A DNA stretch of 64,000 bases from Eledone cirrhosa (GCA_964016885.1 OZ024754.1:29574001-29638000), one strand, 5' to 3'; counted from the first letter of the stretch, positions 452 to 52,307 are shown. Numbers and translations are program-made. The notes: generated by a model not told the origin, from the letters alone.

Positions 452-532
452 GCTCTTTATAGTCTTAAAAAGACTATTTCACGAAACTTTTCAGTGGGGT
501 TAGTCACGTTTGTAGTCGTTCATCAGTAGAGC
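452..532 (-). ncRNA. Type I hammerhead ribozyme in a PLE pLTR-like remnant (~340-580)
   Basis: Minus strand reads GCUCUa-CUGAUGA-ACGA..UCGU-GAAA-UAGUC(loop)GACUA-UA-aAGAGC. Core is complete, stem III has 6 bp and the cleavage triplet is AUA. Homologous to 47332-47413. Confidence 0.8.
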
Positions 533-701
533 CCAAACACGATAACCAAAATCACTGCTAAAATATGCCAGAAAGGGAATATATATATATTTATATATAT
601 ATATATTTAGCTGACTCGATATGCAAATTAGGCTGCTCAGCCGTTAATTTTCATAAGGAAAGTATATACTTTCGAACGTTCAACTATCTGGCAGATGGGT
701 A

Positions 702-746
702 AACGGTGCTGATGATAGCTAACAAGCTTGAAACTAGTACATCGTT
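702..746 (+). ncRNA. Minimal type I hammerhead ribozyme (array A, unit 1)
   Basis: AACGGUG-CUGAUGA-uAGCU(AACA)AGCUu-GAAA-CUAG-UA/CAUCGUU. Stem I has 7 bp, stem III is the palindrome ACUAGU, and cleavage is predicted after 739. Confidence 0.88.
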
Positions 747-1197
747 CCTCTGTCAGTGTTGAACAAAAAGGTGACGTGGTTGCCTTAACACCGTATGGCA
801 TAAATTCAGGCTGTTCGCTTTGTTGACAAACAAACGAACAAAGCGGCCGGCGTTATAATAAACGTCGGCTAAACTGATGCGTGCATATATGTATGTGTAC
901 CTGTATGCATATGTGTATATGTGTATATATATATATATATATATATATGTATATATATATGCGTGCTACTGTACGTCTGTATACATATATGTTTGTACGT
1001 ATACATACATACTTACATTTAAGTAAGTGCCATACTAAGAGTGAGAAATGAAATTTCGTTTTCATTTTTTTCAACTTATCGTTTTCGGTATGCCTGACCG
1101 ATTTAACTTACTCAATATACAAATTAGGCTGCTCAGCCGTTAATTTTCATAAGGAAAGTATATACTTTCGAACGTTCAACTATCTGGCAGATGGGTA

Positions 1198-1242
1198 AAC
1201 GGTGCTGATGATAGCTAACAAGCTTGAAACTAGTACATCGTT
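1198..1242 (+). ncRNA. Minimal type I hammerhead ribozyme (array A, unit 2)
   Basis: Identical to 702-746. Confidence 0.88.
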
Positions 1243-1713
1243 CCTGTGTCAGTGTTGAACAAAAAGGTGACGTGGTTGCCTTAACACCGTATGGCATAAA
1301 TTCAGGCTGTTCGCTTTGTTGACAAACAAACGAACAAAGCGGCCGGCGTTATAATAAACGTCGGCTAAACTGATGCGTGCATATATGTATGTGTACCTGT
1401 ATGCATATGTGTATATGTGTATATATATATATATATATATATATATATATATATATATATATATATATATATATATGCGTGCTACTGTACGTCTGTATAC
1501 ATATATGTATGTACGTATACATACATACTTACATTTAAGTAAGTGCCATACTAAGAGTGAGAAATGAAATTTCGTTTTCATTTTTTTCAACTTATCGTTT
1601 TCGGTATGCCTGACCGATTTAACTCACTGAATATGCAAATTAGGCTGCTCAGCCGTTAATTTTCATAAGGAAAGTATATACTTTCGAACGTTCAACTATC
1701 TGGCAGATGGGTA

Positions 1714-1758
1714 AACGGTGCTGATGATAGCTAACAAGCTTTAAACTAGTACATCGTT
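1714..1758 (+). ncRNA. Hammerhead ribozyme copy with catalytic G12>U mutation (array A, unit 3)
   Basis: GAAA reads TAAA at 1742-1745; the rest is identical to units 1-2. Confidence 0.8.
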
Positions 1759-2387
1759 CCTGCGTCAGTGTTGAACAAAAAGGTGACGTGGTTGCCTTAA
1801 CACCGTATGGCATAAATTCAGGCTGTTCGCTTTGTTGACAAACAAACGAACAAAGCGGCCGGCGTTATAATAAACGTCGGCTAAACTGATGCGTGCATAT
1901 ATGCATGTGTACCTGTATGCATATGTGTATATGTGTATATATATATATATATATATATGTATATATATATGCGTGCTACTGTACGTCTGTATACATATAT
2001 GTATGTACGTATACATACATACTTACATATATATATATATATATATATATATATATATATATATATATATACGTATATATATATATATAAATATATATAT
2101 ATATATATATATATATATATATACGTATATATATATATATATGTATATATATATATATATATATATATATATATATGGAAAGTTATATTTAAATTGTTGG
2201 GTTAACAACGAGTAAATATTTATAACTGATATCAAAGCACTCAACAAGTATTTGGACTATATCATATATATATATATATATATATATATTTATATATATA
2301 TATATATAATATAAATATAAATATATATATATATATATATATATATATATATATATATATATATATATATATATATATATATATATA

Positions 2388-2528
2388 TTAGAAATTAGAA
2401 ATTATAAGCTTTCACCGTATTTTAGACTAAAGAAATTTCTAGCCTGATAGTGGGGTTTATAACCCTCGGAGAAATGGAAAAAGATGAGTGTTGCCGTACG
2501 GTGAAAGCTTATAATTTCTAATTTCTAA
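2388..2528. repeat. Inverted repeat (32-bp arms) abutting (TA)n
   Basis: TTAGAAATTAGAAATTATAAGCTTTCACCGTA ... TACGGTGAAAGCTTATAATTTCTAATTTCTAA. Confidence 0.85.
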
Positions 2529-49183: not shown

Positions 49184-49562
49184 TGAGCGAATAAAGATAT
49201 ACAGACACACATAAAATCCAAACTAACAAAACAAATCAGACAGACACAGAGAGAACAAACAACCTGCTAGTGACAAGTAAATACACACATAAATTAATAA
49301 ATAAACACACATACACACACCCGGATGTAACTACGCAAACTAACCATACAACACACATCACCCAAAAACAAGATGGTGTCGGACAGAACAAAGGAGAGAC
49401 ACAAAATAAAAACCTAGTCACTGAGGAGGTCGCAGAATGTGTGACGAAAAAGTTTTTACAATACTTAAACAACCTTCCGGTTATCGAACCAACCAGCCGA
49501 CCGGAAATTTATTATAAATTGAAGTGAAAACCAACAAGTGTGTGTGTGTTTTTATCGGGAGC

Positions 49563-49760
49563 ATCTATCTATCTAGGGCGGGTAAAATTCCCGAGAGCCA
49601 TGGATGAGTTCTCTCCAGCGGTCTCTGTTCCTCATTATCGCTGCCCTGTCCTGCGTCTCCAACAGACCAGAGCATCAATATACGTTAACCTTGGTCTTCC
49701 TCTTCCAGTGTGTCCATGTAGGGGCTCCCACAGGAACACTGAGTGCAATGTCAACTCTGG
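49563..49760 (-). mobile_element. RTE-clade LINE 3' end fragment
   Basis: Minus-strand translation VFLWEPLHGHTGRGRPRLTYIDAL..MRNRDRWRELI followed by a (TAGA)n tail. The same terminal motif occurs at ~17918-17945. Confidence 0.7.
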
Positions 49761-50046
49761 ATGTCAACTTATCTCCCTTTGTCTGCTGAAAATTTAAGTA
49801 AGCGACAATGTCGCTACTTTGAAACAATAGCGTAAGGTCTTCAAAATGCTTTTAATTAAGCATACAGTGTATTGCAAAATACACTGTATATACATTCATA
49901 TATATATATCGCTATTTCAGAGCACCAATTCTAATTTTCAATTTCTGCTGGGCCGGCGACCGCTCTGTAAAATCAGTTCCTAATTGTTACTGGAATTCTA
50001 TAAGAATCCAACACACATATAATTTTCGGCAGACGGGGAGAGTAGT

Positions 50047-50091
50047 GAGTTTTGATGAGTACCAAACAGTACGAAACAGTGCTGTCAACTT
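50047..50091 (+). ncRNA. Type I hammerhead ribozyme (C3>U variant) within a 321-bp partial tandem (49762-50175)
   Basis: GAGUU-uUGAUGA-GUAC(CAAACA)GUAC-GAAA-CAG(UG)CUG-UC/AACUU. Confidence 0.75.
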
Positions 50092-51744
50092 ATCTACCCC
50101 TGTCTGCTGAAAATTTAAGTAAGCGACAATGTCGCTACTTTAAAACAATAGCCTATGGTCTTCAAAATGCTTTTTATACATTCATATATATATATATATA
50201 TGTATGTATATATATATGTTCGTATATACATACATATATATACATACACATATATATATATATATACATACACCCCCACGCACACACACGCACACACACA
50301 CACACACACACACACACACACACACACACACACACACACACACACACACACACACACACACACATATATATATATATATATATACATACATACGTATATC
50401 TGGAAGACATCTTTGGGAGTCGGCTAACAATAAATCAATTAAATAAGATTAAAATAATAGTATGTATTGTTGATTCTTATTTGGTGTTGAGTGGCCTTAG
50501 GCCAAACATGAGATAAATAAATAGCTTTCACGGTGTTTTTAAAGCTATTGCTGCAGCAGTTGCAAATAAAACAGCCTCACCGAGGAATGGAATGACTGCA
50601 ATTTATAGCAAGTTTTTTACTTTTCTTTTTCTTTTCTTGCTTTTGTTGTTGGAAAATACAAAATATTTGCTCCGAGGTTAAAATAAACCACCCATGCAGT
50701 ATGTTCACACATATACAGGAATATACATACAAACACACACATACACACAAACACACACGTACACACACACGCGTACATACAGACACATATACAAATACAT
50801 TCATAGAAAGACACAGCCCTCCACACATGACCATAGACAGGATTAAGCATATATCGTAACACATACGCACAGATACACATACAAACACACACACACACAC
50901 ACACACATATACAAACAGGCATAGACACAGACACAAACACACTACCCCCACCCACACACACCCTTAAACATACACACAACTAAGCATATACCGTCACACA
51001 TACACACAAATACACATACAAACACACACACATACATACAGTCAAATATGCAAACACACTCATGCAAACACACAACCATCACACAAACACACACATACAC
51101 ACTCAGGCACGCAACCACACATCGATACATACACCATACCTGCACACACACAAATACACACACACATACACACACACTCATACTCATATGCACAAATAAG
51201 CACACATACACAAAACCAAACACGCCCACAGAAGTATCCATGCAGATATGCAAACACACACAAACACACGCGTACACACAGGAAAACTCACACACACTCT
51301 CACACACACCCAGATGTACACAGAAACACACACCCGGATGTACACAGACACACACACATACACAACTAATATTTTCTATTTTCTATTTTAAAGTCACAAC
51401 AACTGCTACCTGTGGTTCAGTTGTTGTTGAACCTTCTTCGGTTCTGAGTTCCGGAGATCCGTGTTCCAGAATTTTGATCCAATGAACAGATTGCGTGTGA
51501 AATAAACCTGCAACTGAGCATTTCGAAGACACGTGTATGCATTGATCACGTTGTTATGGGAGAAATCGACATGACAGTGTGAGCATTATAGGAAAAACTT
51601 ATTTTCAACAGCTGAGTGGACTGGAACATCATGAAATAGTATCTTTAGTGGTTAGGACAATGTAGTAAACACATACGCACTTATATATATATATATATAT
51701 ATATATATATATATATATATATATATATATATATATATATATAT

Positions 51745-52020
51745 ATAAAGAAAAAAAGATGAAATCGAAAATGCAACTGGAGTCTTATTTTTAAAAAAAA
51801 ATATATTTATTTGGTTCCTTTACGGGTTTCGCAGTTCTTGAGATGGAGGGTCTGTGGTTTTTCTCACATGTGATGTGAGAAAAACCACAGACCCTCCATC
51901 TCAACTCTACTTTTAAAAAGCAGAAGAACTGCGAAACCGGTAAAGGAACCAAATAAATATATATATATATTTTTAAATAACACTCCAGTTGCATTTTAGA
52001 TTTCATCTCTTTTTCTTTAT
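51745..52020. repeat. Nested inverted repeats with a decayed HHR
   Basis: Outer arms ~90 bp; inner perfect 32-bp arms at 51838-51904; GCAG(AAGAA)CUGC-GAAACCGGUA. Confidence 0.8.
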
Positions 52021-52241
52021 ACTTTCACTCTTGTAGGACACCTCGGTTATTTTTCATTTTGCAAAAAAAACCTCACTTTCTAATATATATATATATATAT
52101 ATATATATATATATATATATATATATATATATATATATATATATATATATATATATATATATATATATATATATACCGAATTTCAACCGTTGAGGTTGTC
52201 TTTTTCCGGGTATGTCAATATTTATTTATAAAACAAATCTG

Positions 52242-52307
52242 TATTTTATCTGATGAAAGCGCACCATAATTTACCTTGGTCGCCCTTGAAATATATATAA
52301 TAAAATA
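52242..52307 (+). ncRNA. Type I hammerhead ribozyme (stem II partly decayed)
   Basis: UAUUUUAU-CUGAUGA-AAG..ACCA..UGGU..CUU-GAAA-UAUAUA-UA/AUAAAAUA. Confidence 0.75.

What the first reader, a model, noticed from the sequence alone, without database searches (positions are those of the whole stretch)
452..52307. Dense hammerhead-ribozyme retroelement ecosystem: about 30 HHR motifs from at least 10 unrelated families in 52 kb
Seen: intact or nearly intact type I HHR folds at 452(-), 702/1198/1714, 5377(-), 6173(-)/6483/6940/7397, 7976, 21099(-) plus six at 21879+466n, 28074(-), 30724, 34088(-)/36474, 44342(-), 45860, 46757, 47332, 48113, 50047, 51910 and 52242. They are intermixed with PLE EN/RT fragments of at least three lineages. 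Established: PLE pLTRs carry minimal HHRs, and metazoan non-LTR retrozymes are tandem HHR units that give small circRNAs. Inference: this genome hosts a large, diverse and still-amplifying population of non-coding ribozyme retroelements parasitising PLE machinery, invisible to ORF-based annotation. I cannot tell whether these families are already catalogued.
Basis: partly seen in the sequence, partly recalled or inferred. Interest (0 to 1): 0.85.

Follow-up and report, generated by a model that had tools for sequence, protein, structure and literature searches.

The report
Ribozyme repeats bearing Penelope insertion footprints
The window holds real hammerhead-ribozyme sequences of two known kinds, ends of Penelope-type jumping genes and protein-free tandem repeats (retrozymes), and the tandem repeats carry the Penelope insertion signature, so they were likely copied into the genome by Penelope enzymes, possibly by going round and round a small circular RNA, an idea that these copies make testable.

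Summary
The hammerheads are real: 16 intact-core type I folds against 0.03 in shuffles. Of the 29 listed sites 18 are intact, 2 nearly so, 9 damaged or partial. The window is not a special ecosystem: 46 hand-picked 10-kb samples give about 72 per Mb, roughly 200,000 genome-wide. About half the families are ordinary pseudo-LTRs of Penelope-like elements (PLEs), with RT/endonuclease frames upstream in longer copies. Four (A, B, C, E; 457-641 bp tandem units) are ORF-less retrozymes; A and B are related. The new point is their insertion anatomy: arms end at two fixed sites (B 47 of 51, C 49 of 50, A 31 of 36), one site per arm, in inverted arms joined to (TA)n. This matches the PLE two-start 'tail'. 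Both arms can be many units long and share locus-private variants (18 identical full units in L041). PLE mobilisation is therefore strongly supported (about 0.9); rolling-circle copying of a circular RNA at insertion is the likeliest source of the arrays (about 0.5). No RNA data; cleavage untested. New members of known kinds, with useful mechanistic evidence.

The parts
605..2027 (+). Retrozyme family A array, 496/516-bp units, HHR cores 709, 1205, 1721 (last damaged); ends at the inner fixed site into (TA)n
   Evidence: 10,759 exact HHR matches genome-wide
46728..47060 (+). Old family A copy, HHR core 46764 with two lesions
20805..21509 (-). Retrozyme family B, inverted arm, HHR 21136, ends at unit position 301
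21507..24479 (+). Retrozyme family B array, 6.4 x 466 bp, HHR 21886+466n, ends at unit position 233
   Evidence: 5,217 exact HHR matches
6092..6251 (-). Retrozyme family C, inverted arm, HHR 6248 with truncated helix I, ends at unit position 86
6251..7669 (+). Retrozyme family C array, 3.1 x 457 bp, HHR 6488, 6945, 7402, ends at unit position 197
   Evidence: 307 exact matches
47094..47672 (+). Retrozyme family E copy (units about 600-640 bp elsewhere), HHR 47338, ends at unit position 265
   Evidence: (974 matches, tandem)
300..560 (-). Old family E copy, HHR 526
5310..5560 (-). Family N, U3-A8 HHR core 5461; one 595-bp tandem pair and one inverted pair elsewhere, so likely a fifth retrozyme family
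49762..50185 (+). Family J, partial tandem, HHR 50052 with C3 lesion and A/B-like long helix I; unassigned
   Evidence: exact pattern found only here
7776..8180 (+). Family D PLE pseudo-LTR with inverted stub, HHR 7981 (second copy 28024-28238 on minus, core 28123)
   Evidence: 5,966 matches, none at short same-strand spacing in the first 100; RT and EN frames upstream in L195
30640..30845 (+). Family F PLE pseudo-LTR, minimal HHR 30728 (second copy 48050-48230, core 48119)
   Evidence: 3,310 matches; EN upstream in 2 of 30 loci, L272 and L295
29630..30703 (-). N-terminal part of a PLE frame, inverted against the family F end
   Evidence: tblastn to P0009, E 4.7e-8
31511..31755 (+).
   Evidence: PLE N-terminal frame follows it in L009
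52176..52620 (+). Family H PLE pseudo-LTR, HHR 52250, interrupted by a SINE at 52339-52517
   Evidence: 36,082 matches for the H group; RT and EN frames between inverted HHRs in L198, L199, L201, L202
33946..36621 (.). 5'-truncated Neptune-like PLE (family I): minus arm with EN 35388-35969 and HHR 34130, inverted arm with HHR 36479, 40-nt tail
   Evidence: same end after EN in L264
51748..52080 (+). Family L inverted pair, end of a Neptune-like PLE, U3-A8 HHR damaged in this copy
   Evidence: EN upstream in the 9 loci listed; intact core
45780..45985 (+). Family K mini-element: last 140 nt of a Hydra-like PLE, fixed 5' limit inside HHR loop 2, inverted pair
48818..49540 (+). PLE EN fragment followed by a degenerate HHR at 49421 (family P)
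44270..45610 (.). Decayed PLE: inverted arm with HHR 44384(-), RT fragment 44447-44578
5782..6010 (+). Family M inverted pair, HHR-like fold with a U4 change shared by the family copies shown (second copy 11297-11462); unassigned

Best explanation
The window's hammerheads belong to 5'-truncated Penelope-like elements and to protein-free tandem retrozymes whose insertions end at two fixed sites in inverted arms inside (TA)n, likely because a Penelope endonuclease/RT primed twice on one retrozyme RNA and likely copied a self-cleaved, circularised monomer round and round. Steps: (1) inferred: an array is transcribed through more than one unit; in A and B a U6-promoter-like element sits in each unit; (2) inferred from known HHR chemistry: the ribozymes cut (A and B as dimers, short palindromic helix III; C possibly alone) and a host ligase closes the monomer; (3) shown as footprint, enzyme inferred: the PLE protein nicks both strands of (TA)n and starts RT at two internal sites 60-160 nt apart, one on each strand; (4) inferred: each RT runs past the cleavage site for up to about 19 units and stops at a random point; (5) shown: the two cDNAs are joined head to head; (6) shown in some loci: later duplication or conversion alters older arrays.
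For: Two fixed 3' ends: B 47 of 51 arms at 227-233 or 300-303, C 49 of 50 at 86 or 191-197, A 31 of 36 at about 282 or 340, E at 265 in most arms and 109 in the one mapped two-arm locus; two-arm loci use one site per arm, flanked by (TA)n or, in a few loci, other AT-rich repeats. This is the PLE 'tail', which PMC11167929 ties to two internal RT starts and calls unique to PLEs; inverted copies and (TA)n targets are PLE traits in PMC8557442. 5' ends are spread round the whole unit (B 49 arms, C 51 arms), and arms meet flush or nearly so, with no foreign sequence seen between them in B. Both arms can be long (7+13, 11+10, 19+9 HHRs). Arms of one locus differ by 0-5 substitutions over 311-2,931 columns (10 loci) while B loci differ from their nearest sampled neighbour by 2-14 changes per unit; L041 has 18 and L046 6 identical full units. 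No within-locus variant recurs at the mirrored unit of the other arm in L041, L042, L043+44, L203+4 (read by eye). Units fold far better than shuffles (z -11.2, -6.1, -9.5) and in A and B helix I pairs the two ends of the cut-to-cut monomer. True PLE ends (D, F) give no short tandem in their first 100 matches, H two pairs. Four of 51 C arms stop at positions 1-6, the cleavage site (0.67 expected, p 0.005; 2 of 18 in the loci fetched after the idea arose, p 0.024), a hint that C cleaves in vivo.
Against: No RNA was seen, so circles and cleavage are not shown. Some arrays show block-repeated variants that one pass round a monomer cannot give: period 3 in one arm of L043, period 2 in L048, a two-unit block in L203, and a mosaic A/G site in the window's own B array. 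L205 crosses two cut sites and stops at the third, which suits a partly cleaved linear multimer or template jumping as well. B shows 0 of 49 stops at 1-6. For C, loci differ by only 0-5 changes, so the shared-variant test has little power there. In vitro, PAc inserts unprocessed RNA and needs no HHR cleavage (PMC11167929); 8 of 9 Xenopus dimers did not cleave (10.64898/2026.07.22.740005); non-autonomous Chlamys elements, of a clade mostly without canonical HHRs, also give multicopy head-to-tail insertions (PMC8557442). Loci were chosen from the first 100 exact HHR matches on C1/C2, favouring multi-hit ones. No autonomous partner was found: no unit of A, B, C or E aligned to a tested PLE end. 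Runs of 5-7 T in A and B should stop Pol III, which sits badly with a U6-type promoter.
Confidence: 0.5

Rival explanations
1. PLE enzymes insert the retrozymes, but the template is a long uncleaved linear multimer transcribed from a homogeneous source array; no circle is needed.
For: Explains the two fixed ends, inverted long arms and shared variants equally; unprocessed RNA is the main PAc substrate in vitro (PMC11167929); L205 stops at a cut site after two crossings; the mosaic site in the window's B array.
Against: Daughter arms could never exceed the source, and the unit heterogeneity seen in older arrays (up to 4 changes per unit pair) should pass to both arms in mirror order; none seen in four long two-arm loci. 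No upstream flank carried along in B.
Confidence: 0.2
2. The template is a cleaved linear monomer whose ends are held together by helix I, and the RT jumps from its 5' end to its own 3' end each round (a functional circle without ligation).
For: Accounts for homogeneous arrays and for the 4 of 51 C arms that stop at the cut site after any number of rounds; helix I pairs the ends in A and B.
Against: Junctions at the cut site are seamless in the aligned units, whereas end-to-end jumps often add or lose bases (recalled, R2-type RTs); related retrozymes accumulate mostly as circles (PMC7229834).
Confidence: 0.13
3. A PLE inserts one or two units and the arrays grow afterwards by unequal crossing-over or conversion, as proposed in 10.64898/2026.07.22.740005.
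For: Block-repeated variants in L043, L048, L203 show that DNA-level duplication happens; minisatellites can change length faster than they gain substitutions (general knowledge).
Against: The longest arrays are among the most uniform and are long on both inverted arms with no or few arm-to-arm differences (L041: 0 in 2,931 columns); unit length is locus-specific and the same on both arms.
Confidence: 0.12
4. All families are debris of ordinary PLE pseudo-LTRs whose coding parts were not sampled; there are no independent non-coding elements.
For: True for D, F, H, I, K, L, P; only 25-40 loci per tandem family were examined.
Against: A, B, C, E repeat the same unit for kilobases where a PLE would show its ORF; PLE-protein hits in their loci (7 of 40, 7 of 40, 4 of 37, 4 of 25) come from several lineages at varying offsets and strands, about as often as in random DNA (7 of 39).
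Confidence: 0.04
5. The motifs are chance matches in AT-rich DNA.
For: With two core mismatches allowed, shuffles give 9.4 hits against 37.
Against: Intact cores 16 against 0.03; thousands of exact family matches against 0 for reversed patterns.
Confidence: 0.01

Closest known systems
Metazoan non-LTR retrozymes (coral, Mytilus, axolotl, newt satellite 2; Cervera and de la Pena 2020, PMC7229834)
   Same: ORF-less, low-GC tandem units with one type I HHR each, highly self-paired; short palindromic helix III in A and B; coexist with PLEs; thousands of copies.
   Different: Units are 457-641 bp (150-450 bp there). The paper proposes PLEs and circRNA templates only as candidates; 'inverted', 'octopus' and 'cephalopod' do not occur in its main text. 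Here the arrays show inverted arms, two fixed ends and (TA)n targets. Expression and cleavage shown there, not here.
Vertebrate non-LTR retrozymes as PLE derivatives (Li, Clavereau, Pollet, bioRxiv 10.64898/2026.07.22.740005)
   Same: Retrozymes as non-autonomous PLE passengers; monomers to long multimers.
   Different: Its evidence is co-occurrence and sequence similarity to pLTRs, and it explains arrays by local amplification after insertion. Here no pLTR similarity was found for A, B, C, E, but the insertion footprint is PLE-type and arrays appear largely made at insertion. No mollusc among its 35 genomes.
PLE pseudo-LTR HHRs, including minimal and U3-A8 variants (Cervera and de la Pena 2014, PMC4209133)
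   Same: D, F, G, H, I, K, L, P: mostly single or inverted-pair motifs from truncated PLEs; U3-A8 core already reported in Schistosoma; more-than-unit copying of a circle already suggested there.
   Different: Far higher numbers here (H group alone 36,082 exact matches); K has a long helix III and is amplified as a 140-nt fragment.
PAc Poseidon element in vitro (Frangieh et al. 2024, PMC11167929)
   Same: Both strands of AT-rich DNA cut and extended; two internal RT starts that define the genomic tail.
   Different: Tail 30-40 bp there, about 60 (A), 70 (B), 105-111 (C), 156 (E) here; template there is the element's own coding RNA.
Hydra and Neptune PLE clades (Craig et al. 2021, PMC8557442)
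   Same: H-group frames carry RW(K/R), DKT and CxCX5C; D and K carry CxCX5C; I and L carry DKG and CX4CxxC; (TA)n targets.
   Different: Assigned by motifs only; no tree was built. Hydra was described from few molluscan families; Hydra-like ends are the most numerous of the families counted here.

Membership tests
Non-LTR retrozyme (A, B, C, E) | Type I HHR in each unit | tested here: met
Non-LTR retrozyme (A, B, C, E) | Short head-to-tail tandem units, low GC | tested here: met
   457-641 bp, above the 150-450 bp of PMC7229834 but inside the 51-972 bp of the 2026 preprint; GC 0.32-0.36
Non-LTR retrozyme (A, B, C, E) | No protein-coding frame | tested here: met
   No PLE hit inside the window's units; hits in flanks at background rate; ORF list
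Non-LTR retrozyme (A, B, C, E) | Highly self-paired monomer | tested here: met
   z -9.5, -11.2, -6.1 for A, B, C; E not folded
Non-LTR retrozyme (A, B, C, E) | No LTR, PBS or PPT | not tested
   No LTR pair seen in the mapped loci; PBS and PPT were not searched
Non-LTR retrozyme (A, B, C, E) | Self-cleavage | not testable with these tools
   Only indirect: 4 of 51 C arms stop at the cut site
Non-LTR retrozyme (A, B, C, E) | Expressed as monomer circRNA | not testable with these tools
   No RNA holder listed for B
Non-LTR retrozyme (A, B, C, E) | Target-site duplication when present | tested here: inconclusive
   Ends lie in (TA)n, so a duplication cannot be read
PLE pseudo-LTR | RT and GIY-YIG frame upstream on the same strand: families D, F, H, I, K, L, P | tested here: met
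   L195 (D), L272/L295 (F), L198/L199/L201/L202 (H), window and L264 (I), L372 (K), nine loci (L), window (P)
PLE pseudo-LTR | RT and GIY-YIG frame upstream on the same strand: families A, B, C, E | tested here: not met
   Upstream is another unit
PLE pseudo-LTR | Same test for G, J, M, N | tested here: inconclusive
   G is followed by a PLE N-terminal frame in L009; N is tandem in L085; J and M have no consistent link
PLE-mobilised insertion | Two internal RT start sites (tail) | tested here: met
   A, B, C, K; E on one locus
PLE-mobilised insertion | Inverted 5'-truncated copy at the 5' end | tested here: met
PLE-mobilised insertion | AT-rich or (TA)n target | tested here: met
   Flanks
PLE-mobilised insertion | Mobilisation by a named PLE protein | not testable with these tools
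   No partner identified
Hydra clade PLE (D, H, K) | RWK, DKT, CxCX5C motifs | tested here: inconclusive
   All three seen across H-group frames (L198 has RWR, L201); CxCX5C alone for D and K
Hydra clade PLE (D, H, K) | RT phylogeny and loss of CCHH | not tested
   No tree built
Neptune clade PLE (I, L) | C-terminal GIY-YIG with CX2-5CxxC linker and DKG | tested here: met
   L245 for L; linker and EN for I; Nematis shares the linker, so the clade name is tentative

The most novel reading that the evidence does not exclude
This genome records, at thousands of loci, twin-primed rolling-circle reverse transcription of small ribozyme circRNAs by Penelope enzymes: several self-promoting, self-cleaving, viroid-like RNA circles are written into (TA)n as inverted multimers in one step, in a genome with about 200,000 hammerheads. 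Intact-looking PLE proteins and young arrays sit side by side, so the retrozyme life cycle could be rebuilt in vitro.
Probability: 0.45. Interest if true: 0.75.

Novelty: new member of a known kind. Interest (0 to 1): 0.55.

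Why it matters
Who moves animal retrozymes, and whether their tandem arrays come from circular RNA templates, has rested on co-occurrence and sequence likeness. Here ORF-less ribozyme repeats carry the PLE-specific two-start tail, inverted arms and (TA)n targeting at dozens of mapped loci, which is direct genomic evidence for PLE mobilisation, and they define the exact start sites to test with purified protein. 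Long, uniform arrays on both arms favour array formation at insertion over later expansion. The genome also seems to hold one of the largest hammerhead sets reported (about 200,000 estimated, against 126,247 in the axolotl). The window itself is ordinary for this genome.

Tried and rejected
Rfam scan: swamped by microsatellite miRNA matches; only HH9 below gathering score for B; nothing useful for K or the 489-bp dimer at 11730-12614. The repeat finder was swamped by simple repeats; masked self-BLAST used instead. DNA search of G000 with a B stretch returned nothing because common words are skipped; exact patterns used instead. Family PF26215 was not in the library; PF01541 was used. RNA: no RNA holder listed for B; contigs of X1, X4, X5, X6 (kind unknown) cover the B unit and X1, X4, X6 show the head-to-tail joint, which says nothing on expression. 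Earlier findings: none. 'Window is a hotspot': rejected by locus count. 'Family N is the pLTR of the PLE in L240': rejected, it lies antisense to that EN there. 'K starts at a ribozyme cut': rejected, its 5' limit is about 45 nt upstream of the cut, in loop 2. 'A/B promoter is U2-like': not supported, the U2 upstream regions fetched lack the motif. Autonomous partner by pLTR similarity: none at E 0.05. Family J exact pattern found only in the window. Literature searches for a prior description; none of the listings showed a paper on retrozyme insertion ends or on these families; Dfam, Repbase and paper supplements were not seen.

Full report
Setting. The window is G000:C14:29574001-29638000 of a 3.0-Gb animal assembly, AT-rich and full of (TA)n and (CA)n. 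The repeat landscape recalls octopods; this is recalled, not tested. The only named relative of the window's endonuclease among 17 hits is an oyster protein, 49% identical.

Observation. A descriptor scan for core plus three helices finds 16 intact type I hammerheads in 64 kb; 30 block shuffles give 0.03 on average. One intact motif (31662) was missed. PLE fragments of at least three lineages are present.

Is the window special? That is 72 per Mb (95% interval 49-101), about 215,000 in the genome, not counting U3-A8 forms. The window has 16 against 4.6 expected, but 12 come from three arrays; by insertions it is 7 against 3.8 (p 0.09). So the feature is genome-wide.

Two kinds of family. Exact-pattern counts (reversed controls all 0): A 10,759, B 5,217, C 307, E 974, D 5,966, F 3,310, H group 36,082. 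In the first 100 positions of each, A, B, C and E recur on one strand at unit spacing; D and F never do and H twice. Long copies of D and H hold RT and GIY-YIG frames between two inverted hammerheads; F, I, K, L and P have an endonuclease upstream. These are PLE pseudo-LTRs, Hydra-like (D, H, K) or Neptune-like (I, L) by the motifs given in PMC8557442; no tree was built. In A, B, C and E the upstream sequence is another unit, and PLE-protein hits in their loci are at background rate. N is tandem in one locus. G is likely a pLTR; J and M stay unassigned. A and B are homologous across the ribozyme and an upstream element.

Insertion anatomy of the retrozymes. Numbering each unit from the predicted cut, B arms end at 227-233 or 300-303 (47 of 51; of the other four, two are short internal-palindrome hits and two are arms broken by a gap), C at 86 or 191-197 (49 of 50), A at about 282 or 340 (31 of 36; three misses are mis-called last units), E at 265 and once at 109. 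Two-arm loci are divergent, use one site on each arm and are joined to (TA)n; several one-arm B loci keep a stub of the second arm. PMC11167929 shows that a purified PLE protein cuts and extends both strands of AT-rich DNA and starts at two internal sites that match the genomic tail, a trait it calls unique to PLEs; PMC8557442 describes the tail, the inverted copy and (TA)n bias. The retrozymes therefore carry the PLE footprint. This step I put at about 0.9. These loci were taken from the first 100 matches on C1/C2, favouring multi-hit ones: 30 B (with the window and one neighbour), 34 C, 21 A.

How the arrays arise. Ends lie inside the unit, not at the cut; 5' ends are spread round it; both arms can cross many cut sites (7+13, 11+10, 19+9). 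Arms of one locus are nearly identical (0-5 substitutions in 311-2,931 columns) and share locus-private variants, while B loci differ by 2-14 changes per unit from the nearest sampled locus; L041 has 18 identical full units. One RNA molecule, or one uniform source, served both arms. Variants inside long two-arm loci are not mirrored (by eye). Units fold strongly, and in A and B helix I closes the monomer. The simplest reading is more-than-unit copying of a circle, as proposed without genomic evidence in PMC4209133 and PMC7229834. Against it: block-repeated variants in L043, L048, L203 and a mosaic site in the window's B array show later duplication, conversion or mixed templates; L205 stops at a cut site after two crossings; PAc needs no cleavage in vitro; non-autonomous Chlamys elements, of a clade mostly without canonical HHRs, also insert as multimers; 8 of 9 Xenopus dimers did not cleave. 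Four of 51 C arms stop at the cut site (p 0.005; p 0.024 in the later sample), none of 49 B arms. No RNA run holds B. I give the circle 0.5, a linear multimer 0.2, self-jumping on a cut monomer 0.13, later expansion as the main source 0.12.

Promoter lead. Three distinct U6 upstream regions of this genome share a TATGCWAATKAG word at -76 to -78 and a TATA box at -30; A and B carry the same word, followed by a TATA-like word 42-43 nt later (46-48 in U6), which would start transcription near the 5' strand of helix I. Outside A the word occurs 3 times in 390 kb on both strands. The U2 regions fetched lack it; C, E and the PLE ends tested lack it. Newt satellite 2 is reported to use an snRNA-type Pol II promoter (cited in PMC2220036). 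T runs inside A and B argue against Pol III read-through, so the polymerase is open; the match was found post hoc.

Family K. 33 of 34 copies outside the K-targeted search stop within 11 nt of one 5' position; 16 arms in 460 kb. Longer copies show a U3-A8 hammerhead with long helix III, downstream of a Hydra-like endonuclease. The stop lies in loop 2, 29 nt after a TATA-like word at an initiator-like site (motifs recalled). Likely these are copies of the PLE transcript's 5' leader, made when RT primes at the start sites nearest the transcript's own beginning.

Activity. Zero-divergence arrays and PLE frames open for 938 and 1,096 codons indicate recent activity; present-day activity is not shown.

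Papers seen. 10.64898/2026.07.22.740005: parts 1-3 of 5 (abstract to discussion; supplements closed). PMC7229834: parts 2-4 of 6 and passages. PMC11167929: parts 1-2 of 4. PMC4209133: parts 1-2 of 4. PMC8557442, PMC2220036, PMC6962438: passages only. No supplements were read; those of PMC7229834 (model figure, other species) and PMC8557442 (family files, including cephalopods) may bear on novelty. Searches for prior description.

Verdict. Real, but of known kinds: PLE pLTR hammerheads plus four or five new non-LTR retrozyme families. The added value is the footprint that ties retrozymes to PLE enzymes and points to array formation at insertion. Interest 0.55.

Noticed in passing
window 11730-12614: 489-bp dimer of an abundant repeat (19 BLAST hits in 390 kb random) with a fixed left end joined to (CATA)n or (TA)n in the copies shown; no hammerhead or Rfam match found.
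   Followed up: partly
window 53035-57547 and 58558-63205: Two L1/Tx1-like LINEs, 74% identical over 2.5 kb: AP endonuclease, RT, zf-RVT, frameshifted.
   Followed up: partly
window 37247-43988: 6.7-kb C/A-rich minisatellite (about 60-bp period) with extreme strand skew, giving spurious Thr/Pro frames; similar flanks at 37093-37240 and 48418-48565.
   Followed up: no
window 3763-3963, 9139-9409, 11075-11175, 25059-25740, 31163-31335, 52339-52517: Abundant 180-200 bp SINE-like family (89 BLAST hits in 390 kb random); one copy interrupts the family H end.
   Followed up: no
window near 1634 and 21786, 22252 etc. (families A, B); L351-L353: Word shared with this genome's U6 upstream regions, followed by a TATA-like word; possible internal snRNA-type promoter.
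   Followed up: partly
window 45780-45985; L339, L101, L371, L372: Family K mini-elements with a hard 5' stop at a TATA/initiator-like site inside HHR loop 2; very abundant (16 arms in 460 kb).
   Followed up: yes
L245 2509-5322 (-), L247 775-4062 (+): Near-intact Neptune-like PLE frames (938 and 1,096 codons open), candidates for in vitro work.
   Followed up: partly
window 5782-6010, 11297-11462: Family M keeps a U4-to-A change in the core in the copies shown; either a tolerated variant or a dead ribozyme that still spreads.
   Followed up: no
window 26972-27119, 36723-36880, 2182-2256, 2391-2525, 52536-52715: Further short inverted pairs flanked by (TA)n, probably PLE 3' stubs without their hammerhead.
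   Followed up: no
L081-L119, L419-L425: Several more HHR families not present in the window appear in the random samples.
   Followed up: no
G000:C19:31.78-31.84 Mb and C3:307.35-307.45 Mb: Tandem clusters of U6 (about 1.8-kb period) and U2 (about 2.2-kb period) genes.
   Followed up: no
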